Assembly (NCBI GenBank): GCA_017504335.1
Contig: JAFVRI010000166.1
Span: 1 to 36,411, forward strand
DNA: 36,411 bases
Reading direction: 5' to 3'
Origin: Clostridia bacterium
GTDB lineage: Bacteria > Bacillota > Clostridia > Oscillospirales > CAG-272
Under the pieces are notes generated by a model that saw only the letters and a program-made list of their open reading frames with translations, was not told where the DNA came from and ran no database searches. Shown piece after piece: positions 6,873 to 34,458 of the stretch. Both the position numbers and the translations under genes were made by a program. Position 1 is the stretch's first letter; each line of letters begins with the position of its first letter.

Positions 6873-7736
6873 ATGAAAAAGATCCGAATTGCCTTTCTCG
6901 GCACAGAAAATTCTCACGCGTTTGCCTTTTGCCGTGTTCTGTGCGGCAATCCCGATTATGCCGACATCGAGATCGTCGGTGCCTACGGGCCCGACGAAGA
7001 GGCAAACAAGCAGCTCCGTGATGCGGGCTACGTCTCCTACTTTGCCAAGACCCCCGATGAGTTCCTCGGCAAGGTAGACGCGGTGGTGGTGACCGCCCGT
7101 CACGGAGACCTGCACTATGAATATGCCATGCCCTATCTGAAGGCAGGCATTCATGCCTTCATCGACAAGCCCTTTACCGTAGATCTCTCAAAGGCACAGG
7201 AAATGTTCGACGTGGCAAACAAGACGGGCGCTCTGATGTGCGGCGGCTCCACGCTCCGCTTTTTGGATGAGTTCCGTCCTCTCGCGCGCTTCGTACAGAA
7301 AAACAAGGTGGTCTGCGGTCACGTTGCCGCTCCCATTGATATGGTCAACGAATACGGCGGATTTTACTTCTATGCCCAGCATCTGACCGAATCGGTGCTG
7401 ACCATCTTCGGCCCCAACGTTCGCTCGGTATTGGCGCGTGCCGCCGCTCCCGAGCAGAACCGTGTGAGCGTGATCTTCTCCTACGACGACTTTGACGTGG
7501 CGGGTACCTACACCTCCTCCTACACCTATGCCGCTCGCGTTATGGGTGAGAAGGAATGTCTGGATGTTCACACCGTCGGATCGGTCAGCTACGCCTACAC
7601 GTACGAAATCAACGAGATGGTGGAAATGTTCCGTACCGGCAAGCGTGCCACCGATGACGAGACCATGATCCGTCCTCTTCGCATTCTGCACGCCATTGAG
7701 GAATCCTACACCGCAGGCAAGGAAGTGACGCTGTGA
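6873..7736 (+). CDS. Gfo/Idh/MocA-like oxidoreductase (short, divergent)
   Basis: MKKIRIAFLGTENSHAFAF... with a DKP variant of the EKP motif (AFIDKPFT). I prefer the ATG at 6873 (GAGGTG upstream) to the TTG at 6861. Confidence 0.75.
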   Translation: MKKIRIAFLGTENSHAFAFCRVLCGNPDYADIEIVGAYGPDEEANKQLRDAGYVSYFAKTPDEFLGKVDAVVVTARHGDLHYEYAMPYLKAGIHAFIDKPFTVDLSKAQEMFDVANKTGALMCGGSTLRFLDEFRPLARFVQKNKVVCGHVAAPIDMVNEYGGFYFYAQHLTESVLTIFGPNVRSVLARAAAPEQNRVSVIFSYDDFDVAGTYTSSYTYAARVMGEKECLDVHTVGSVSYAYTYEINEMVEMFRTGKRATDDETMIRPLRILHAIEESYTAGKEVTL

Positions 7737-8854
7737 AAAAGTTTTATCAGAACGGTGTGATCATCACCGACGGCAAGGAGATCCGCGACATGGGAATCCT
7801 CACCGAGGATGGCAAGATCCTCGATCTGATCCCCTCTGCTCCCGCGGATGCCGAGATCGTGGAGCTTCACGGAAATTATATCCTGCCCGGACTCATTGAG
7901 CTGCACTGTCACGGCGGTGACGGCGCCGAGTTCATTGACGGCACCGAGGAGTCGATCCTTCGCGCCTGCCGTCTTCATGCCGACCACGGCACACGGGTGC
8001 TCTATCCCACCATTTCCGCCACCGATTACGATACCATGGTTCGGGCACTGGAGGCATTGGAAGCCTGCCGTGACCGTATGCCCCTGGAAATTCCCGGTGC
8101 CCATTTGGAGGGTCCCTATCTGGCGCCCGAAATGTGCGGTGCCCAGGATACAGCTGTGATCCGTCTGCCCAATCCCCAAGAATACGAGGCACTGGTGGAA
8201 CGGTTCGGCTCTCTCATTGCCCGTTGGAGCTATGCTCCCGAGCGGGACACGGACGGCAAATTCCTTGCCTTCCTGAAAAAGAAGGGCATCACCCCCGCCA
8301 CGGCGCATTCCTCCGCGGAATATTCCCACATGAAGGAAGCCCTTGCGGGCGGAAACCGTTTGGTGACCCATCTTTACTCCTGTACCTCGACCATCACCCG
8401 CCACGGCGGCTTCCGCCATCTGGGTGTCATTGAGTCTGCCTTCCTCATGGATGACATTTATGTGGAGACCATTGCGGACGGCTGTCATCTCCCTCCTGAG
8501 CTTCTGCGCATGATCGTGAAGATCAAGGGTGTGGATCGCGTATGTCTGGTGACCGATGCCATTCGCTTCGGCGGCTTGACTGCCGGTGAGGTAGGCGGTT
8601 CGGTTCCCTATGTCATTGAGGACGGTGTAGCAAAGCTCGCGGATCGCTCCGCCTTTGCGGGTAGCATCGCCACCGCCGATATGCTCATCGAGCGTACCGT
8701 CCGCGCCGGCTTCTCCCTGCCCGACACGGTGCGCATGATGACCGAGACCCCCGCTACCCTGATGGGTCTTTCCACCAAGGGACACATCGCCCGTGGCTAC
8801 GATGCCGATTTCACGGTATTGGATCGGGACTTGAAGAGTGTAGCGGTTGGTTAA
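7733..8854 (+). CDS. nagA: N-acetylglucosamine-6-phosphate deacetylase-like amidohydrolase
   Basis: Metal-binding motif LIELHCHGGDGAEFIDG of the Bacillus-type NagA, and the fold marker ...VTDAIRFGG... The GTG start overlaps the upstream stop (GTGA at 7733-7736). Confidence 0.8.
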   Translation: MKKFYQNGVIITDGKEIRDMGILTEDGKILDLIPSAPADAEIVELHGNYILPGLIELHCHGGDGAEFIDGTEESILRACRLHADHGTRVLYPTISATDYDTMVRALEALEACRDRMPLEIPGAHLEGPYLAPEMCGAQDTAVIRLPNPQEYEALVERFGSLIARWSYAPERDTDGKFLAFLKKKGITPATAHSSAEYSHMKEALAGGNRLVTHLYSCTSTITRHGGFRHLGVIESAFLMDDIYVETIADGCHLPPELLRMIVKIKGVDRVCLVTDAIRFGGLTAGEVGGSVPYVIEDGVAKLADRSAFAGSIATADMLIERTVRAGFSLPDTVRMMTETPATLMGLSTKGHIARGYDADFTVLDRDLKSVAVG

Positions 8855-8860
8855 TGAATT

Positions 8861-9041
8861 CGTTACGACTCGTTTTTTCCGCTTTTAGAAAAAGCTTGGC
8901 AAAACTTTCATACAAATTATGACTTGACCCTTGTACATTCTTCTCGTCATGATTTTGCAGTAAAATATTGTTTTTCTCTAAGGTAGAAAACCATCGGACG
9001 GCTACACGTGCTACGCACAGCCACCGATGGTTTTCTTTTTG
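8861..9041 (+). repeat. family T repeat, copy A (3' of the nagA-like gene)
   Basis: It starts 7 nt after the stop. The order is TTACGAC (8863-8869), palindrome GCTTTTAGAAAAAGC, GCAAAACTTTCATACAAATTATGACTTGACCCTTGTACATTCTTCTCGTCATGATTT, then TTTCTCTAAGGTAGAAAACCATCGG...CCGATGGTTTTC TTTTT (hairpin 8986-9035 plus T-run). Confidence 0.85.
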
Positions 9042-9050
9042 TATTTATAA

Positions 9051-9203
9051 CGGGACGTCGAGGACGTCGTCCCCTACAAGATAGAAATTATTTGTCGTAC
9101 ATTCTCCTAAATAAACAAAGGCATACCCGATTGCTTATTTATTTAGGAAAATTGCATTGGCATCCCTCTATCATTTGTAGGGGGCGACGTCCTCGACGCC
9201 CCG
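9051..9203 (+). repeat. family H long-hairpin element, copy H1 (MITE-like)
   Basis: 27-nt terminal inverted repeats: CGGGACGTCGAGGACGTCGTCCCCTAC (9051-9077) and GTAGGGGGCGACGTCCTCGACGCCCCG (9177-9203). An inner inverted repeat is TCCTAAATAAA...TTTATTTAGGA. The element begins about 10 nt after the T-run of copy A. Confidence 0.8.
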
Positions 9204-9302
9204 AGAAACAATCGCATCCCGTTTTCTTCTTGTGTGAATCCTTCTGTGAAAATGCTCCCTCCGGGAGGGAGCTGAAAGCGACTGAGGGAGAGTGCGATCA
9301 CA
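9204..9302. repeat. GC-rich hairpin block
   Basis: Perfect palindrome GCTCCCTCCGGGAGGGAGC at 9254-9272, followed by GAAAGCGACTGAGGGAGAGTG. The segment GAAACAATCGCATCCC (9206-9221) recurs inverted at 18199-18214 next to copy H2. Confidence 0.5.
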
Positions 9303-9390
9303 ATAAAGAGAGACGGAACATCGCGGGCGAGCAATCAACCTACCAAATCGTTCAAGTCATTTTTTCATCGTTCATTCTTTTCCGATTCCC

Positions 9391-12181: not shown

Positions 12182-12351
12182 CTTACGACTAATATTAGGT
12201 CGCTTTTGAAAAAGCTCCGCAAAACTTTTCATACAAGGATATTTTTATTTTTTATTCACGTTCCTTGTCTTTGTGTCACGTGTAAACGTATGGTTTCTCT
12301 CTAAGGTGGAAATCCGTCGGACCCTCTGGCGTCCCGACGGATTTCTTTTTG
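12182..12351 (+). repeat. family T repeat, copy B1 (3' of the GH20-like gene)
   Basis: TTACGAC at 12183-12189, 6 nt after the stop. GTCGCTTTTGAAAAAGCTCCGCAAAACTTTTCATACAA follows, then the subtype-2 core ATATTTTTATTTTTTATTCACGTTCCTTGTCTTTGTG, then TCTCTAAGGTGGAAATCCGTCGG...CCGACGGATTTC TTTTT (12309-12351). Confidence 0.85.
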
Positions 12352-12360
12352 TTTTTTTTT

Positions 12361-12580
12361 AATAAAAAAGAAAACCATCGGTGTCCTCCTTCGCTTCGCT
12401 TCGGGACATATGCTTGCGCATATGTTGGCTCAGCAACGCAGTCCGATGGTTTTCTACCTTAGAGAAAAAACAATATTCTTTTACGCAAATCATGACGAGA
12501 ACAATGCACAAAGGTCAAGCCAAAACAAGTAATAAAGTTTTTGCGCCACTTTTTTCAAAAAGTGGCAAATCGCGTCCCTC
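12361..12580 (-). repeat. family T repeat, copy B2 (3' end of the LacI gene, overlapping its last codons and stop)
   Basis: The minus strand reads GGGACGCGATTTGCCACTTTTTGAAAAAAGTGGCGCAAAAACTTTATTAC...GGCTTGACCTTTGTGCATTGTTCTCGTCATGATTTGCG...TTTTCTCTAAGGTAGAAAACCATCGG-(about 60-nt loop insert)-CCGATGGTTTTC TTTTTT. It lies convergent with copy B1. Confidence 0.85.
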
Positions 12581-14950: not shown

Positions 14951-15137
14951 ACGCGGACGCGAGGACGCGGGGGACGCGATTTGTCGCTTTTTAAAAAAAG
15001 CTCCGCAAAAACTTTATTACAGGTTATGGCTTGACCCTTCTGCATTGTCCTCGTCATTGTTTTTGTAAAAGAATATTCTTTTTTCTCTAAGGTGGAAATC
15101 CGTCGGACCCTGCTGCGTCCCGACGGATTTCTTTTTT
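14951..15137 (+). repeat. family T repeat, copy C (3' of the Gfo/Idh/MocA gene)
   Basis: ACGCGGACGCGAGGACGCGGGGGACGCGATTTGTCGCTTTTTAAAAAAAGCTCCGCAAAAACTTTATTACAGGTTATGGCTTGACCCTTCTGCATTGTCCTCGTCATTGTTT...TTTTCTCTAAGGTGGAAATCCGTCGG...CCGACGGATTTC TTTTTT. Confidence 0.85.
15095..15137. terminator. bidirectional intrinsic terminator shared by the Gfo gene (+) and the AraC gene (-)
   Basis: The GAAATCCGTCGG...CCGACGGATTTC hairpin is followed by TTTTTT. The convergent AraC stop codon lies at 15150..15148. Confidence 0.75.
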
Positions 15138-18158: not shown

Positions 18159-18198
18159 GAAAACCGTCGGGACGCAAGGACCCGACGGATTTCTTTTT
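18159..18198 (+). terminator. intrinsic terminator of the GH42 gene (same hairpin family as the family T tails, inverted loop)
   Basis: GAAAACCGTCGGGACGCAAGGACCCGACGGATTTC followed by TTTTT. It starts 5 nt after the stop. Confidence 0.75.
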
Positions 18199-18216
18199 GG
18201 GGATGCGATTGTTTCA

Positions 18217-18365
18217 CGGGACGTCGAGGACGTCGTCCCCTACGAGACAGATGTGATTTATCGCACATTTTTCTATTGAAACAAAGGGATTTTCGATTGT
18301 TTATTTAGAAAAATTGCAAAGGCTTTCCACCATCATTTGTAGGGGACGACGTCCTCGACGTTCCG
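18217..18365 (+). repeat. family H long-hairpin element, copy H2 (diverged)
   Basis: The arms are CGGGACGTCGAGGACGTCGTCCCCTAC (18217-18243) and GTAGGGGACGACGTCCTCGACGTTCCG (18339-18365). The interior is collinear with H1 but more diverged. The element is wedged between two terminator hairpins. Confidence 0.75.
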
Positions 18366-18580
18366 TTACAAATAAAGAAATCCGTGGTGGCGTAGCAGCC
18401 GTCCACGGATTTCTACCTTAGAGAAAGAACATTCGCTCACATCCCAAACAAAGACGAGAAACGTGAACAAAAATAAAAATATTTTTGTATGAAAGTTTTT
18501 GCGGAGCTTTTTTCAAAAAGCGACAAAAAGTTTTTGCCAAGCTTTTTTCAAAAAGCGTAAAAATTCCAGTCGTAACTAAT
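18366..18580 (-). repeat. family T repeat, copy D (3' of cysS), with a tandemly duplicated head palindrome
   Basis: The minus strand reads TGA ATTAG TTACGAC TGGAATTTTTACGCTTTTTGAAAAAAGCTTGGCAAAAACTTTTTGTCGCTTTTTGAAAAAAGCTCCGCAAAAACTTTCATACAAAAATATTTTTATTTTTGTTCACGTTTCTCGTCTTTGT...TTTCTCTAAGGTAGAAATCCGTGG...CCACGGATTTC TTTATTT. The palindromes lie at 18506-18521 and 18541-18556. Confidence 0.85.
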
Positions 18581-29249: not shown

Positions 29250-29392
29250 GATTTTTGTCGCTTTTTGGAAAATTCTTACGACTCATATTTTTGTCGCTTT
29301 TGAAAAAGCTCCGCAAAACTTTCATACAAATTATGGCTTGGGGAACATAGACTCCTCGTCCTTGTGTAGGATGTAAGTGATTCTTTTTTTAT
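29250..29392 (+). repeat. family T repeat, copy E1 (no upstream gene; head duplicated, tail missing)
   Basis: TTTTTGTCGCTTTTTGGAAAA, then TTACGAC (29276-29282), then ATTTTTGTCGCTTTTGAAAAAGCTCCGCAAAACTTTCATACAAATTATGGCTTG...CCTCGTCCTTGTGTAGGATG. The copy is truncated at a T-run where copy H3 begins. Confidence 0.75.
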
Positions 29393-29394
29393 AA

Positions 29395-29543
29395 CGGGGC
29401 GTCGAGGACGTCGCCCCCTACAAGAGATAGAGAGATGCCTTTGTAATTTTCCTAAATATGCAATCGGATATACGTTTGTTTATTTAGGAGAATGCGCGAC
29501 AAATTCCATCTATCCCGTAGGGGGCGACGTCCTCGACGCCCCG
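29395..29543 (-). repeat. family H long-hairpin element, copy H3 (interior inverted relative to H1)
   Basis: The arms are CGGGGCGTCGAGGACGTCGCCCCCTAC (29395-29421) and GTAGGGGGCGACGTCCTCGACGCCCCG (29517-29543), extended by TATAA/TTATA. The reverse complement of the interior aligns with H1 (GATAGA..ATTTGTCG..CATTCTCCTAAATAAACAAA...CCGATTGC.TATTTAGGAAAATT.CA..GGCATC.CTCTATC). Confidence 0.8.
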
Positions 29544-29547
29544 TTAT

Positions 29548-29722
29548 AAAAAGAGAAGAAATCCGTCGGGACGCAGCAGGGTCCGACGGATTTCTACCTT
29601 AGAGAAAAAAGAATCGCTCATATCCTACACAAAGACGAGGAACGTGTAGTAAGGTAAAGAAATAATTTGTATGAAAAGTTTTGCGGAGCTTTTTTCAAAA
29701 GCGACCAAAATCCATCCCTCAA
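29548..29722 (-). repeat. family T repeat, copy E2 (3' of the PocR/AraC gene)
   Basis: The minus strand reads TAG TTAGTTGAGGGATGGATTTTGGTCGCTTTTGAAAAAAGCTCCGCAAAACTTTTCATACAAATTATTTC...ACGTTCCTCGTCTTTGTGTAGGATATG...TTTTCTCTAAGGTAGAAATCCGTCGGACCCTGCTGCGTCCCGACGGATTTC. The hairpin is identical to that of copy C. Confidence 0.85.
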
Positions 29723-30553
29723 CTAACTACTCCCCCTCAATTTTCTCCATTCGGAGGGCGAGATCCCTTCCATCTTTTTAAAGCAGCGGGAGAAGTATTC
29801 CACATCGGGGAATCCGCAGCGCTCGGCGATATCGGTGACGGAAAGGGAGGTGTTGAGGAGCAGCTCACGGGCGAGCTTCATGCGTTCCTTCTGCACGTAC
29901 TGCATGATGGTCATACCGAACTCACGGCGAAAGCTTTCGGTCAGAGTTACGGTGCTGCAATGGAGACGCTGGCTGATATCCGACAGGGTAATTTTTTTCT
30001 TGAGATTTTTACGCACATACTGCTTGATCAGATAGCCGAGGGTCTGACGGCTGGAGGAGACCAGGCGATTGGCGGACAGATGCGATGCTAAGAGGGCAAG
30101 CAGACGTTCGATCGCGTCCATTTCCTCGCGGGAATGGCAAACGAGGGAGCGAGCGCCCTCGCGGAGCGCGGCGGTGCTGATTTCGGGGGCATCGGACAGC
30201 ACCAGCTGATAAAGCCCCTGCAAATGACCCGCATGCTCGGGGAAAATGGCGGGCCCAATGAAGAGATAGCCGAGAATATGCTCCCCGTCGAGGATGGGAT
30301 AGATCGCCTCCCAAAGCCCATAGGGGCAGGCATAGATCTGGGGCAGATGGGTCTGCTTTGCCTGCACCAGCATCCGCGCGTCGGAGCGGATACAGCGATC
30401 GAGGCAGAGCTTGGACTTGTGAAGGGTGGAGCAGTAGGATGCCTGATCGGCAATGTTGCAGACGCAACGGAATTGCTCGTCGTAGAGCGCGATATTCAAA
30501 TGGGTCAGCAGATGAAAGTCGTGCAAAAGCTCCTCTGCCTTGGATGTTGCCAT
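29723..30553 (-). CDS. AraC family transcriptional regulator with an N-terminal PocR-like sensory domain
   Basis: MATSKAEELLHDFHLLTHLNIALYDEQFRCVCN...CSTLHKSKLCLDRCIRSD...YACPYGLWEAIYPILDGEHILGYLFIG matches the PocR-type pattern. The C-terminal HTH is ...DIAERCGFPDVEYFSRCFKKMEGISPSEWR. The start at 30553 is uncertain (alternative ATG at 30601). Confidence 0.75.
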   Translation of the reverse strand: MATSKAEELLHDFHLLTHLNIALYDEQFRCVCNIADQASYCSTLHKSKLCLDRCIRSDARMLVQAKQTHLPQIYACPYGLWEAIYPILDGEHILGYLFIGPAIFPEHAGHLQGLYQLVLSDAPEISTAALREGARSLVCHSREEMDAIERLLALLASHLSANRLVSSSRQTLGYLIKQYVRKNLKKKITLSDISQRLHCSTVTLTESFRREFGMTIMQYVQKERMKLARELLLNTSLSVTDIAERCGFPDVEYFSRCFKKMEGISPSEWRKLRGSS

Positions 30554-30751
30554 TTCCTTCTTCCCCCCCTTTTGGTTGTGCTTTCTCTTGTATTGTATCA
30601 TGAAAATCCATAAATTACAACCCCCATTTTTGAAGAAAAACAAAAGAACCTTATTGATTTTTCAAATTGTCTTATGAATCCTTCATGGAAAAGACGGGAA
30701 ATGTTTGCTATAATCTAATCAACACTTCAAGAAAGATGGAGGATTGTGATT

Positions 30752-33140: not shown

Positions 33141-34295
33141 ATGGAATCCAACGTTGTACGCATCCGCCGTCAGCTTCATATGTACCCCGAGATCGGCTTC
33201 GATCTGCCCCTCACTCTGCAGTTTTTGCGGGACGAGATGGATGCCATCGGGGTAGACTATACAGAGCAATACGGAAAAAGCTCGATCGTCGCCACGGTAA
33301 ACCCCGAAAAAACGAATTTTACCTTAGGCATTCGTGCGGATATGGATGCTCTTCCCATGGAGGAAAAGAATGACGTGCCCTACCGTTCCCGCATCAAGGG
33401 GCAGATGCATGCCTGCGGTCACGATGCCCATACGGCGATCGCTTTGGAGACCCTTCGCCGTGTATACGAGGAGCGGGACGCCATTGGCTGTCGGGTAAAA
33501 TTCCTGTTTCAGCCCTCCGAGGAGGCAGGACCGTCGGGTGCCATGCTCATGGCGGAGGACGGTGTCATGGATGACATCGACTGCATCGTGGCACTTCATT
33601 GCGATACCACCATCCCCGTGGGCAAGGTTGCCGTGACCGAGGGGGCGCAAAATGCCATCAGCGACGGTTTTACCTTGGTATTCCACGGAAAAAGCTCCCA
33701 CGCGGGCAATCAGGAAAAGGGAATTGACGCCATTATGATGGCGGTAAAGGCATATACGCAGATCGAATTTATGATCGCCAAGGATTTTTCCGCCAAGGTT
33801 CCCATGATCTTCAACGTGGGTGCCATTCACGGCGGTGTGACCAATAACATTTTAGCGGAGTCGTGTACCATGTTCTGCACCCTTCGTTCTCATACCGAGG
33901 AAACCGCCGCCTATGCGCTGGACAAGATCCGTCGAATCGGTGAATCGGTTGCCGAGCTGGAGGGCGGTCGCTTTGAAATGATCCCCAACAAGCACTATCC
34001 CATCGTCTACAACGACGCGGGTATGGTGCAACGGATCCGCCGTGCCGCTTGCGTAGTGGTGGGTGCGGACAACCTCGGCGAAAACAAGCGCTCTATGGGC
34101 GGTGAGGATTTCTCCTACTTCGCCATGAAAAAGCCCGGTGGATATTTCCGTCTCGGTGTCCGCAATGAGGAAAAGGGGATCGTCAACGGGGTGCATCACG
34201 ACAATTTCGATCTGGACGAGGCTGCCCTCGAGATCGGGGTCCGGATGTTCCTGCGGATCATTCGGGACGCGGGGGACGCGATCAGCCGTTTTTAA
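33141..34295 (+). CDS. M20D family amidohydrolase (N-acyl-amino-acid/hippurate hydrolase-like)
   Basis: ATG at 33141 follows GGAAGG (alternative ATG at 33123). The sequence runs IRRQLHMYPEIGF...GIRADMDALPM...QMHACGHDAHTA...FQPSEE...GGEDFSYF. Confidence 0.88.
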   Translation: MESNVVRIRRQLHMYPEIGFDLPLTLQFLRDEMDAIGVDYTEQYGKSSIVATVNPEKTNFTLGIRADMDALPMEEKNDVPYRSRIKGQMHACGHDAHTAIALETLRRVYEERDAIGCRVKFLFQPSEEAGPSGAMLMAEDGVMDDIDCIVALHCDTTIPVGKVAVTEGAQNAISDGFTLVFHGKSSHAGNQEKGIDAIMMAVKAYTQIEFMIAKDFSAKVPMIFNVGAIHGGVTNNILAESCTMFCTLRSHTEETAAYALDKIRRIGESVAELEGGRFEMIPNKHYPIVYNDAGMVQRIRRAACVVVGADNLGENKRSMGGEDFSYFAMKKPGGYFRLGVRNEEKGIVNGVHHDNFDLDEAALEIGVRMFLRIIRDAGDAISRF

Positions 34296-34458
34296 AAACC
34301 AAACTTCGCTTCGCCGCAACACTTGTATTACAAAATATGGCCGGATCTTCGTATAGCGTTCTCGTCATAATTTGCGTAAAATCATAGGATTGTTCTCTAA
34401 AGCAGAAAACCGTCGGACGCCTATATGTGCCGCGCACACCGCCGATGGTTTTCTTTTT
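34264..34458 (+). repeat. family T repeat, copy F (degenerate; overlaps the last codons and stop of the M20 gene)
   Basis: GGGACGCGGGGGACGCGATCAGCCGTTTTTAAAAACC...CTTGTATTACAAAATATGGCC...GTTCTCGTCATAATTTGCGTAAAAT...TTCTCTAAAGCAGAAAACCGTCGG...CCGATGGTTTTC TTTTT (hairpin 34405-34453). Confidence 0.7.

What the first reader, a model, noticed from the sequence alone, without database searches (positions are those of the whole stretch)
9051..9203. Family H: three copies of a roughly 150-bp long-hairpin element with 27-nt GC-rich terminal inverted repeats, always next to terminator T-runs
H1 (9051-9203), H2 (18217-18365) and H3 (29395-29543) share arms CGGGRCGTCGAGGACGTCGYCCCCTAC / GTAGGGGRCGACGTCCTCGACG..CCG and an inner inverted repeat (TCCTAAATAAA/TTTATTTAGGA). 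The whole element can fold into one long hairpin. Each copy sits within a few nucleotides of an A/T-run flanking a family T or related terminator hairpin, and H3 appears to have split or truncated copy E1. There is no coding capacity. The element looks like a MITE with a preference for terminator T-tracts, nested into the first repeat family.
Basis: seen in the sequence. Interest (0 to 1): 0.6.

Follow-up and report, generated by a model that had tools for sequence, protein, structure and literature searches.

The report
REP hairpin doublets of gut Clostridia
The three 150-bp elements are inverted pairs of a GTAG-tagged DNA hairpin (a REP doublet, or REPIN) belonging to a REP-transposase system of an uncultured gut Clostridia bacterium, so they are a new example of a known kind of small mobile repeat and not a new class.

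Summary
H1, H2 and H3 are copies of a 148-153-bp palindromic element. The 2.05-Mb draft genome holds 11 complete copies and at least 14 more cut by contig ends.

The 27-nt "terminal inverted repeats" are not ordinary TIRs. Each arm is a self-folding GC-rich hairpin with a GTAG tetranucleotide at its inner foot, which is the defining anatomy of a REP. Stem changes are compensated within an arm (20/20) but not between arms (5/10 Watson-Crick, 2 wobble, 3 broken). There is no target-site duplication and no IS with these ends.

The genome has one RAYT-like HUH/Y1 gene on contig C251. It matches NCBIfam REP-associated tyrosine transposase (E=1.8e-20), and its only PDB hit is E. coli TnpA-REP, 4ER8. 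An H element lies just upstream of this gene, and the same REP sits in frame inside its coding sequence.

In relatives, each RAYT paralogue carries an inverted pair of its own REP variant around the HUH motif. Matching doublets are dispersed in the same genome.

About half of the arms lie within 60 nt of a terminator hairpin of a second repeat family (background 0.5%).

REP/REPIN-RAYT systems and in-frame REPs inside subclass 2.4 tnpA-REP genes are already published (Quentin et al. 2018). Verdict: new member of a known kind, of moderate interest.

The parts
9051..9203 (+). H1: a REP doublet of 153 bp. It reads hairpin+CTAC, then a 99-nt interior, then GTAG+hairpin.
   Evidence: It folds to one hairpin of -81.9 kcal/mol, z = -12.2. 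It lies downstream of an amidohydrolase gene (7733-8854, +) and upstream of a metallophosphoesterase gene.
9051..9077 (-). Left arm of H1: a REP unit read on the minus strand (GTAG + hairpin). It is the A..T stem variant.
   Evidence: CGGGACGTCGAGGACGTCGTCCCCTAC. The arm alone folds at -13.2 kcal/mol.
9177..9203 (+). Right arm of H1: a REP unit (GTAG + hairpin). It is the G..C stem variant, so it mismatches the left arm at the two co-varying positions.
   Evidence: GTAGGGGGCGACGTCCTCGACGCCCCG.
18217..18365 (+). H2: a REP doublet of 149 bp in the same interior orientation as H1.
   Evidence: Folding energy is -77.8 kcal/mol, z = -11.6. It lies between convergent GH42 beta-galactosidase and CysRS genes.
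29395..29543 (-). H3: a REP doublet of 149 bp with its interior inverted relative to H1 and H2. Both arms are the G..C variant.
   Evidence: (I1, I7). Folding energy is -96.4 kcal/mol, z = -12.0. It lies downstream of the AraC/PocR regulator gene (29723-30643, -).
8985..9036 (+). Family-T terminator-like hairpin with a T-run. Its last base is 14 nt before the first base of H1.
18159..18193 (+). Terminator-like hairpin after the GH42 gene, 23 nt before H2.
18377..18413 (-). Family-T (copy D) hairpin, 11 nt after H2.
29558..29594 (-). Family-T (copy E2) hairpin, 14 nt after H3. E1 on the other strand appears to share it, so H3 separates the body of E1 from this hairpin.
   Evidence: (I18).
9204..9245 (+). 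'Class-2 flank', AGAAACAATCGCATCCCGTTTTCTTC..., attached to the tail of the right arm of H1. The same about 30 nt follow the stop codon of the RAYT gene on C251 and flank other copies.
   Evidence: alignment of flanks with the region downstream of the RAYT gene; I13.
18199..18216 (-). The same class-2 flank, as its reverse complement, attached to the left arm of H2.
   Evidence: (I13).

Best explanation
**What it is.** H is a REPIN-type element. It consists of two copies of one REP (a GTAG tetranucleotide followed by a 22-nt GC-rich imperfect palindrome) in inverted orientation, with the GTAG 'heads' facing inward, separated by about 95 nt of loosely conserved and largely self-complementary spacer.

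**How it most likely works (inferred).** On single-stranded DNA, for example the lagging-strand template, each arm folds into its own hairpin. The genome's single-copy REP-associated tyrosine transposase (RAYT/TnpA-REP, an HUH/Y1 enzyme; gene on contig C251, 167 aa) is expected to recognise the hairpin together with the GTAG guide. It would then cut and rejoin the strand. This would move or copy REP units and doublets without a target-site duplication.

**Where copies sit.** Copies accumulate, or are tolerated, just outside genes, typically about 15 nt beyond the T-run of an intrinsic-terminator-like hairpin. If transcribed there, they would add a very stable 3' stem-loop.

**What is shown.**
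- The anatomy of the element.
- Covariation within each arm.
- The copy number.
- The absence of a TSD.
- Physical linkage of an H element to the RAYT gene.
- Presence of the same REP inside the RAYT gene.
- One-to-one matching of REP variants to RAYT paralogues in related genomes.

**What is inferred from the E. coli, Stenotrophomonas and Marinomonas systems.**
- Binding and cleavage by this enzyme.
- A single-stranded route of movement.
- Any role of the transcribed element as an RNA.
For: 1. **REP anatomy.** Every arm is hairpin+CTAC, which is GTAG+hairpin on the other strand.
2. **The hairpin is the selected structure.** Over 45 distinct REP sequences, 95% of cells are paired. There are 45 double-change cells against 13.7 in shuffles, and 0 of 500 shuffles reach that number. 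In the 10 aligned doublets the variable pair is kept 20/20 within arms. Between arms it is Watson-Crick in 5 of 10, wobble in 2 and broken in 3.
3. **Arms are constrained, the spacer is not.** Arms are 94% identical on average and interiors 70%.
4. **Multi-copy and assembly-breaking.** There are 11 complete doublets of 148-153 bp and at least 14 arms cut by contig ends in a draft that is 83% complete.
5. **No TSD and no long element with these ends**.
6. **One RAYT-like gene.** It lies at C251:14364-14864(-). It scores E=1.8e-20 against NCBIfam NF047646 'REP-associated tyrosine transposase'. Its only PDB hit is 4ER8, TnpA-REP, at 5.9e-7. The GTAG-contact positions are kept as W-Q...D-H..R (Quentin 2018, PMC6006769). 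An H doublet ends 30 nt upstream of its ATG. A second doublet shares an arm with the first, as in a BIME. The majority REP variant sits in frame just after the HUH motif.
7. **Cognate pairing in relatives.** In G067, two RAYT paralogues each hold an inverted pair of a different REP variant, and dispersed doublets of the same variants occur. G017 is similar. Of 29 paralogues examined in the genus, 27 have GTAG+hairpin at about nt 150 of the extracted gene stretch (which starts up to 40 nt before the match) and its reverse complement at about nt 320. The hairpin sequences differ.
8. **Distribution.** The 22-mer is found in more than 117 stretches of other genomes, almost all gut Clostridia. Most copies lie outside RAYT genes (163 against 15).
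9. **Terminator proximity.** 16 of 31 arms against 0.5% of random sites.
Against: - No activity data exist for this enzyme or for any enzyme of its clade.
- No empty or filled site polymorphism could be shown. The only syntenic relative (G005) is about 80% identical, and its intergenic region is simply different.
- Assembled copies are old (interiors 59-84% identical), so recent movement is not demonstrated.
- The first intragenic REP of the own RAYT gene has lost 9 nt, which could mean the system is decaying here.
- The protein scores 73.3 bits, just under NCBIfam's 80-bit cut-off. It is below Pfam's Y1_Tnp threshold.
- The genome is a binned draft with 5.8% contamination. Co-residence of C251 and the window contig therefore rests on binning and on the shared repeat.
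Confidence: 0.8

Rival explanations
1. H is a classical MITE. On this reading it is a deletion derivative of a DDE-type insertion sequence, mobilised through its 27-bp terminal inverted repeats, with a short target duplication at AT-rich terminator tracts.
For: The element is short, non-coding and multi-copy. It has near-perfect terminal inverted repeats and AT-rich flanks.
Against: There is no direct repeat at the flanks of any complete copy. No longer element is bounded by these arms on any contig. The arms are self-complementary hairpins with internal compensatory changes and a GTAG tag, which a DDE TIR has no reason to keep. The same sequence lies inside and beside a Y1/HUH gene.
Confidence: 0.04
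2. H is a host structural or regulatory element. It would act as a bidirectional terminator extension or an mRNA 3' stabiliser. It would spread only by duplication and recombination together with the family-T repeat, with no part played by the RAYT.
For: All window copies lie downstream of genes beside terminator hairpins. The stem-loops are extremely stable. The copies are old and diverged. REPs in E. coli have documented 3'-UTR roles (Di Nocera 2013, PMC3733652).
Against: This does not explain the GTAG tag. It does not explain the REP copies inside and next to the RAYT gene, or the one-to-one match of REP variants with RAYT paralogues in G067 and G017. It also does not explain the occurrence of the same REP in many genera with different spacers and flanks. 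A host role and RAYT-driven spread are not mutually exclusive.
Confidence: 0.1
3. H is a palindrome-associated element (PATE-like) derived from an IS200/IS605 insertion sequence and moved by an IS200-type TnpA.
For: The genome holds an IS200-type tnpA fragment on C172. IS200/IS605 ends are also hairpins recognised as single strands.
Against: The C172 gene is truncated after the HUH motif and has its own, unrelated hairpin. IS200/IS605 ends are two different hairpins in direct orientation, not an inverted pair of one GTAG-tagged hairpin. The protein linked to H carries the class 2 (TnpA-REP) signatures NHIH, WQ and Y-x-x-x-N-P. It does not carry the IS200 Y-x-x-x-Q signature (Quentin 2018).
Confidence: 0.03

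Closest known systems
REPINs with RAYTs of Pseudomonas and Enterobacteria (Bertels & Rainey 2011, PMC3116915; Nunvar 2010, PMC2817692)
   Same: Both have two inverted REPs with a short spacer that fold as one long hairpin. Both have tens of intergenic copies, no TSD, and a single-copy Y1/HUH gene physically linked to the repeat. In both, each RAYT paralogue has its own REP family.
   Different: The host is an uncultured gut Clostridia bacterium. The spacer is long (about 95 nt). The heads (GTAG) face inward. Assembled copies are diverged rather than a tight 'master sequence' cloud. The RAYT carries the REP inside its reading frame as well as beside it.
TnpA-REP subclass 2.4 (Bertels Group 4) with REPs inserted in frame inside the gene (Quentin, Siguier, Chandler & Fichant 2018, PMC6006769, Fig. 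S10)
   Same: Both have the NH[IFV]H and WQ motifs and GTAG REPs whose stem begins with G-C pairs. Both have a REP in frame in the variable loop between the HuH strand (beta3) and helix alphaC. In both the insertion is peripheral and disordered (pLDDT below 50 in my model).
   Different: The paper names Cyanobacteria, Bacteroidetes and 'various phyla', not Clostridia. [quoted passage not shown] Here a second, inverted copy sits at a fixed site before the HuH motif, so the pair brackets the HuH-coding segment. The Y motif is YI(L/Y)ENP rather than YIxNNP.
E. coli REP/BIME with TnpA-REP (REPtron; Ton-Hoang 2012, PMC3333891; Messing 2012, PMC3479197, PDB 4ER8; Corneloup 2021, PMC8266576)
   Same: Both have a GTAG guide at the foot of an imperfect palindrome and REPs in alternating orientation that share arms (C251:14895-15064). 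4ER8 is the only solved structure hit, and the GTAG-contact residues are conserved.
   Different: E. coli REPs have a bulged stem and linkers of 10-30 nt. The E. coli enzyme belongs to subclass 2.2 (DHLH, WE) and has no REP inside the gene.
GTAG-tagged palindromic repeats surveyed by Di Nocera, De Gregorio & Rocco 2013 (PMC3733652)
   Same: Both have a GTAG tag and mostly occur as close inverted pairs. Both lie mainly downstream of coding regions between unidirectional or convergent genes, with occasional intragenic copies.
   Different: That survey's text does not mention Clostridia or Firmicutes.
Classical bacterial MITEs (for example Correia, RUP, BOX-type elements)
   Same: Size, lack of coding capacity, terminal inverted repeats and intergenic location.
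   Different: Those have DDE-type TIRs and target duplications and are derived from identifiable ISs. H has none of these.

Membership tests
REP (GTAG-tagged repetitive extragenic palindrome) | A conserved GT[AG]G tetranucleotide at the 5' foot of the hairpin | tested here: met
   33 arms in the genome match hairpin+CTA[CT] with at most 1 mismatch; nearly all, and all six window arms, read CTAC, which is GTAG+hairpin on the other strand.
REP (GTAG-tagged repetitive extragenic palindrome) | A 20-40 nt GC-rich imperfect palindrome whose pairing is conserved | tested here: met
   The palindrome is 22 nt, folds at -13 to -15 kcal/mol, and shows 95% pairing with compensatory changes; 0 of 500 shuffles reach the observed number.
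REP (GTAG-tagged repetitive extragenic palindrome) | High copy number, mostly extragenic | tested here: met
   There are 31-34 pattern matches in 2.05 Mb. The window copies are all intergenic. The count is modest compared with the hundreds in Pseudomonas or E. coli, and the draft collapses repeats.
REP (GTAG-tagged repetitive extragenic palindrome) | Association with a RAYT/TnpA-REP gene that carries or is flanked by the same REP | tested here: met
   On C251 an H doublet ends 30 nt upstream of the ATG, a REP lies inside the ORF, and a REP-tail remnant plus the class-2 flank follows the stop codon.
REP (GTAG-tagged repetitive extragenic palindrome) | Specific binding and cleavage of the single-stranded REP by the cognate enzyme | not testable with these tools
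   This needs biochemistry.
REPIN | Two REPs in inverted orientation separated by a short spacer, with the whole able to form one hairpin | tested here: met
   11 doublets have arm spacing of 124-129 nt. Long-hairpin minimum-free-energy folds have z = -8 to -12.
REPIN | The doublet, not the single REP, is the replicating unit (doublets outnumber singlets; populations of near-identical copies) | tested here: inconclusive
   Doublets clearly predominate over tagged singlets. However, assembled copies are only 59-84% identical in the spacer, and the most similar copies would be collapsed at contig ends.
REPIN | A single-copy, vertically inherited RAYT | tested here: inconclusive
   There is one copy in this 83%-complete draft. 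45 of 61 genomes of the genus have at least one, and many have several paralogues. Inheritance was not analysed.
TnpA-REP subclass 2.4 / RAYT Group 4 | HuH motif NH[IFV]H and a conserved WQ | tested here: met
   IMPNHIHVI and NIWQ.
TnpA-REP subclass 2.4 / RAYT Group 4 | Y motif YIxNNP | tested here: inconclusive
   The sequence is YILENP here and YIYENP in most homologues. The class 2 pattern Y---NP is met, but the subclass-specific N is replaced by E.
TnpA-REP subclass 2.4 / RAYT Group 4 | A variable insertion between beta3 and alphaC made of in-frame REP sequence | tested here: met
   GASRTSPPT is encoded by GGGGCGTCGAGGACGTCGCCCCCTAC directly after the HuH strand. It is a disordered loop in the model.
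TnpA-REP subclass 2.4 / RAYT Group 4 | Placement in the published phylogeny or profile of the subclass | not tested
   The subclass profiles are not available here. NCBIfam REP_Tyr_transpos scores 73.3 bits against a cut-off of 80.
Classical (DDE) MITE | Target-site duplication flanking the TIRs | tested here: not met
   No direct repeat is seen at any of 10 complete copies. The flanks fall into two unrelated classes in any combination.
Classical (DDE) MITE | A parent IS with the same TIRs | tested here: not met
   No inward-facing arm pair is more than 200 bp apart on any contig. The draft is incomplete.
IS200/IS605-derived PATE | Distinct left and right subterminal hairpins in direct orientation, with an IS200-type TnpA (Y---Q) | tested here: not met
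   The arms are an inverted pair of one hairpin. The only IS200-type gene (C172) is truncated and has an unrelated hairpin.

The most novel reading that the evidence does not exclude
**Proposed reading.** In this large Clostridial RAYT clade, the inverted REP pair inside the gene is not a tolerated passenger but a working part of the system. It would be a REPIN whose spacer encodes the HUH segment. It could serve as the heritable master copy that keeps the enzyme and the dispersed REP and REPIN population matched. It could also act as a cis element through which the enzyme limits its own expression, or through which its mRNA forms a 26-bp duplex.

**Observations in favour.**
- Two fixed sites are kept in paralogues of 43-69% identity, with quite different hairpin sequences.
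- The pair is exactly reverse-complementary in 17 of the 27 paralogues in which a pair was found (29 examined).
- The changes that keep the stem paired alter the encoded amino acids.
- REP variants in G067 and G017 match the paralogue that carries them.

**Observations against.**
- REP-free relatives exist.
- The first site of this genome's own gene is eroded.
- No inverted HUH segment was found in 54 genes.
Probability: 0.2. Interest if true: 0.65.

Novelty: new member of a known kind. Interest (0 to 1): 0.35.

Why it matters
REP and REPIN-RAYT systems have been studied almost only in Proteobacteria. This case shows a well-developed system in uncultured gut Clostridia (Oscillospirales-type MAGs from ruminant and other guts). 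It has several co-existing RAYT paralogues, each with its own REP variant.

There are three practical consequences:
- These hairpin doublets break short-read assemblies, since many contigs of this MAG end in them.
- They create spurious small ORFs and odd loop insertions in proteins.
- They should be masked or annotated in gut-metagenome pipelines.

Biologically, the strong bias for sites just beyond terminators offers a tractable test of whether such elements are selfish, domesticated or both. So does the fixed pair of REPs inside the transposase gene.

Tried and rejected
- **Rfam.** There were no matches at gathering thresholds over the whole window. Around H1 there were only sub-threshold chance hits.
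- **My first guess on the host was wrong.** I read the intergenic motifs as Bacteroidales. The collection scan shows Clostridia.
- **TSD search.** None was found.
- **Search for a long element with the same ends.** None was found.
- **IS200 link.** The only strong Y1_Tnp hit in the genome is a truncated IS200-type gene with an unrelated hairpin.
- **Empty site in a relative.** The one syntenic genome (G005:C78) has a plain terminator in place of the family-T copy, H1 and the downstream repeat. It is too diverged (76-80% in the flanking genes) to define an exact empty site.
- **Is the H spacer derived from the parts of the RAYT gene outside the REP pair?** I saw only short, unconvincing resemblances (CTACAAG..., ...CTATCC..GTAG) and did not pursue them statistically.
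- **Consensus fold of the spacer.** RNAalifold supports only the arm-arm stem. The spacer has no conserved structure in the alignment, although each copy folds on its own.
No mixed-strand arrangement was found in 54 complete RAYT genes among my loci.
- **Spacer homology between genomes.** The 61-65-nt spacers of G067 doublets are unrelated to the H spacer. Only the arms are shared.

Full report
**Observation.**
A repeat scan recovers them as one family (D2, D6, D7, I14, I22, I23). The arms are 27 nt:
- H1: 9051-9077 and 9177-9203
- H2: 18217-18243 and 18339-18365
- H3: 29395-29421 and 29517-29543

By its interior, H3 is inverted relative to H1 and H2 (I1, I7). Each element folds into one long hairpin of -72 to -96 kcal/mol, with z = -8 to -12 against shuffles. 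The window is contig C157 of a 276-contig, 2.05-Mb draft with 50.6% G+C, 83% completeness and 5.8% contamination.

**Copy number.**
The genome holds 11 complete doublets of 148-153 bp. At least 14 further arms have their interior running off a contig end. The element is therefore a repeat that breaks the assembly. The arm pattern occurs 31-34 times, and the same pattern read backwards occurs 0 times.

**What the arms are.**
Each arm is itself a hairpin, CGGGxCG-T-CG-AGGA-CG-T-CGx'CCCG, followed by CTAC. On the other strand it reads GTAG + hairpin. The variable stem positions change together: A..T, G..C, T..A and AC..GT.

In the 10 aligned doublets this pair is kept 20/20 within arms. The corresponding pair between the left and right arm is Watson-Crick in 5 of 10, wobble in 2 and broken in 3. 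I also took 45 distinct REP sequences from this genome and from related loci. For the stem, 95% of cells are paired. Four pairs show changes on both sides. There are 45 double-change cells against 13.7 in shuffles, and 0 of 500 shuffles reach that number. All slid registers collapse. My selection required at least 4 of 6 outer pairs, so the percentage paired is somewhat inflated. The double changes are not affected by that filter.

Arms average 94% pairwise identity and interiors 70%. A GTAG tetranucleotide at the foot of a GC-rich imperfect palindrome is the published definition of a REP (Nunvar 2010, PMC2817692; Di Nocera 2013, PMC3733652; Quentin 2018, PMC6006769). An inverted pair of REPs with a spacer is a REPIN (Bertels & Rainey 2011, PMC3116915).

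**Not a TIR/TSD MITE.**
No complete copy has a direct repeat at its flanks. The flanks fall into two classes, TTT(A/G)T(A/T)A and (T)TTTCT, and these occur in any combination. No inward-facing arm pair is more than about 130 nt apart on any contig.

A few untagged single hairpins also exist, flanked by the same TTTATAA/TTATAAA (C33, C161, C201, C44, C195). They look like central deletions of doublets. That reading is inference.

**The partner gene.**
A Pfam Y1_Tnp search of the genome gave only a truncated IS200-type gene with an unrelated hairpin. In 20 other genomes that hold the arm motif, weak Y1_Tnp hits of about 170 aa turned up that contain the motif twice. In L136 the ORF 1414-1920 reads ...NIVGGDVLDAP...IMPDHIHILLRVKKGASRTSPPTRQ.... 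Here GTAGGGGGCGACGTCCTCGACGCCCC encodes VGGDVLDAP, and its reverse complement encodes GASRTSPPT.

Searching this protein against the own genome found one homologue, C251:14364-14864(-), of 167 aa. Its features:
- It scores E=1.8e-20 (73.3 bits, cut-off 80) against NCBIfam NF047646 'REP-associated tyrosine transposase'.
- Against Pfam Y1_Tnp it scores only E=0.11.
- Its only PDB hit is E. coli TnpA-REP bound to a REP, 4ER8, at E=5.9e-7. The GTAG-contact positions W94, Q95, E100, H101 and R104 are kept as W, Q, D, H and R (Quentin 2018, section 14).
- An H doublet (C251:14895-15042) ends 30 nt upstream of the ATG. A second doublet shares an arm with it before the contig ends, as in a BIME.
- The majority (G..C) REP variant lies in frame just after the HUH motif.
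- The first intragenic site is present but shortened by 9 nt.
- The stop codon is followed by ACCCG plus about 30 nt. These are the same 'class-2 flank' attached to the right arm of H1, the left arm of H2 and a copy on C95. The gene is thus bracketed by REP material, like a REPtron.

**Relatives.**
The 22-mer arm pattern is present in more than 117 stretches of other species' genomes. Almost all are gut Clostridia: Oscillospiraceae, Acutalibacteraceae, Ruminococcus (including R. flavefaciens MA2007) and 'Eubacteriales' MAGs. Most copies lie outside RAYT genes (163 against 15), in inward, outward or tandem arrangements.

In the genus, 45 of 61 genomes have at least one homologue, and often several. 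Of 29 paralogues examined, 27 have GTAG+hairpin at about nt 150 of the extracted gene stretch (which starts up to 40 nt before the match) and its reverse complement at about nt 320. The exceptions are the own gene, whose first site is shortened, and L191, a match that begins only at residue 47. The pair is exact in 17 cases. The hairpins differ, for example GGGGCGACGTCC.., GGACAGGCGTCC.., GGGAGGATATTATCCTCCC, GGGCGATCATTGATCGCCC and GGCGGGGGCTTGCTCCCGCC.

In G067 (94% complete, 20 contigs) two paralogues each carry a pair of a different variant, and dispersed doublets of the same variants occur. G017 behaves the same way. This is the one-RAYT-one-REP-family rule known from other systems. G067 doublets have unrelated spacers of 61-65 nt, so only the arms are shared between genomes.

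The protein family is large: 2,655 homologues at 90% clustering and 28,379 representatives at 50% clustering. Of the 144 best representatives with a recognisable HUH motif, 93 have VG before it and P[T/Y] after it. For at least 49 of the 144, the two peptides can be back-translated as reverse complements over 15 nt or more. Some relatives lack both sites. Some have tandem expansions.

In an AlphaFold model (mean pLDDT 78), site 1 lies in the beta1-alphaA connection. Site 2 is a disordered loop between the HUH strand and alphaC.

**Where the copies sit.**
- H1 lies downstream of an amidohydrolase gene.
- H2 lies between convergent GH42 and CysRS genes.
- H3 lies downstream of an AraC/PocR regulator gene.

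Each is 11-23 nt from a terminator-like hairpin. Genome-wide, 16 of 31 arms have a family-T hairpin within 60 nt outside the arm, against 0.5% of random sites. The arm usually starts about 15 nt after the hairpin. This could be target choice or selective retention, and I cannot tell which.

H3 sits between the body of family-T copy E1 and the hairpin that E1 appears to share with E2 (I18).

**Comparison with what is known.**
REP/BIME-TnpA-REP and REPIN-RAYT systems are well described. In vitro, E. coli, Stenotrophomonas and Marinomonas enzymes bind the folded single-stranded REP. They cut at CT or CA sites selected through the GTAG guide (Ton-Hoang 2012; Messing 2012; Corneloup 2021).

Quentin et al. 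[quoted passage not shown] The protein here fits that description, except that YI(L/Y)ENP replaces YIxNNP. Clostridia are not named for that subclass. The fixed second site before the HUH motif is not described in the text that I could read, and Figure S10 itself is not held. Bertels 2017 mentions Clostridia only for Group 1. Di Nocera 2013 does not mention Firmicutes at all.

Earlier notes of this scan, on other genomes, reach the same reading. I saw them only after forming mine, and they are not independent evidence. One of them proposed that the HUH segment flips. I found no such arrangement in 54 genes.

**Verdict.**
H is a REP doublet (REPIN- or BIME-type) of a REP-RAYT system in a gut Clostridia MAG. 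The anatomy, the covariation, the copy number, the absence of a TSD, the linkage to the RAYT gene and the cognate matching in relatives are shown. Catalysis, the single-stranded route and any RNA-level role are inferred from homologous systems. It is a new member of a known kind.

**Limits.**
- The genome is a fragmentary binned draft.
- No close strain was available for empty sites.
- There are no activity data for this clade.

Noticed in passing
window 8861-9041, 12182-12580, 14951-15137, 18366-18580, 29250-29392, 29548-29722, 34264-34458: The other repeat (family T) consists of a head, ..GAAAAAGCTCCGCAAAACTTT.., and a terminator-like tail hairpin. It is very abundant genome-wide: 82 head matches and 159 half-hairpin matches. 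A compact version also follows the RAYT gene of another genome (L136:1905-2015).
   Followed up: partly
window 9249-9308 (hairpin GCTCCCTCCGGGAGGGAGC at 9254-9272): A third short repeat lies in the leader of the metallophosphoesterase gene. It has many copies at 80-90% identity over about 60 nt in numerous genomes of the genus and 11 hairpin matches in this genome. It has no Rfam match.
   Followed up: partly
own genome contigs C35, C99, C60:14007, C177, C271, C31 (not in the window): A second GTAG-tagged REP family, GTAG-GGCGGGGGCTTGCTCCCGCC, has 8 tagged and 14 untagged matches. It is sometimes adjacent to H copies. The same hairpin is the intragenic REP of other RAYT paralogues in the genus (L199, L201). 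No cognate RAYT was found in this draft.
   Followed up: partly
own genome C172:2344-2496(-) (L001): An IS200-type tnpA gene is truncated just after its HUH motif. It has a typical IS200 upstream hairpin that is unrelated to H.
   Followed up: yes
P0013, P0019, P0023, P0024, P0029, P0129, P0163, P0233: Some RAYT homologues carry tandem expansions of the REP-encoded peptide, for example GASRTSPNGASRTSPN... or repeated GDVPDAPHE... . The two intragenic sites are therefore hotspots for slippage or repeated REP insertion.
   Followed up: no
L202-L214, L217, L218 (G067): In G067 the REP doublets sit inside a larger conserved repeat. The flanks are ..ACAGTGATGAGGTTTAGGTTGTAATGATTGTACAA and AAATAAGCAAAACATAAAT.. 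. The same spacer family occurs with two different arm variants, and both arms of a doublet are always the same variant.
   Followed up: no
own genome C33:3376, C161:8299, C201:19798, C44:3109, C195:5405, C183:31848, C209:1441, C240:2652: Single untagged hairpins (no GTAG) are flanked by the same TTTATAA/TTATAAA or TTTCT/AGAAA as the doublets. Three of them lie in identical sequence over the 40 nt displayed, and three are a shorter perfect hairpin, CGGGACGTC-GAG-GACGTCCCG.
   Followed up: no
L082, L095, L106, L107: The 22-mer arm pattern also matched single contigs labelled Gemmatimonadales, Bacteroides (MAG) and two Streptomyces genomes. These may be chance matches in GC-rich coding sequence, or mis-binned contigs.
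   Followed up: no
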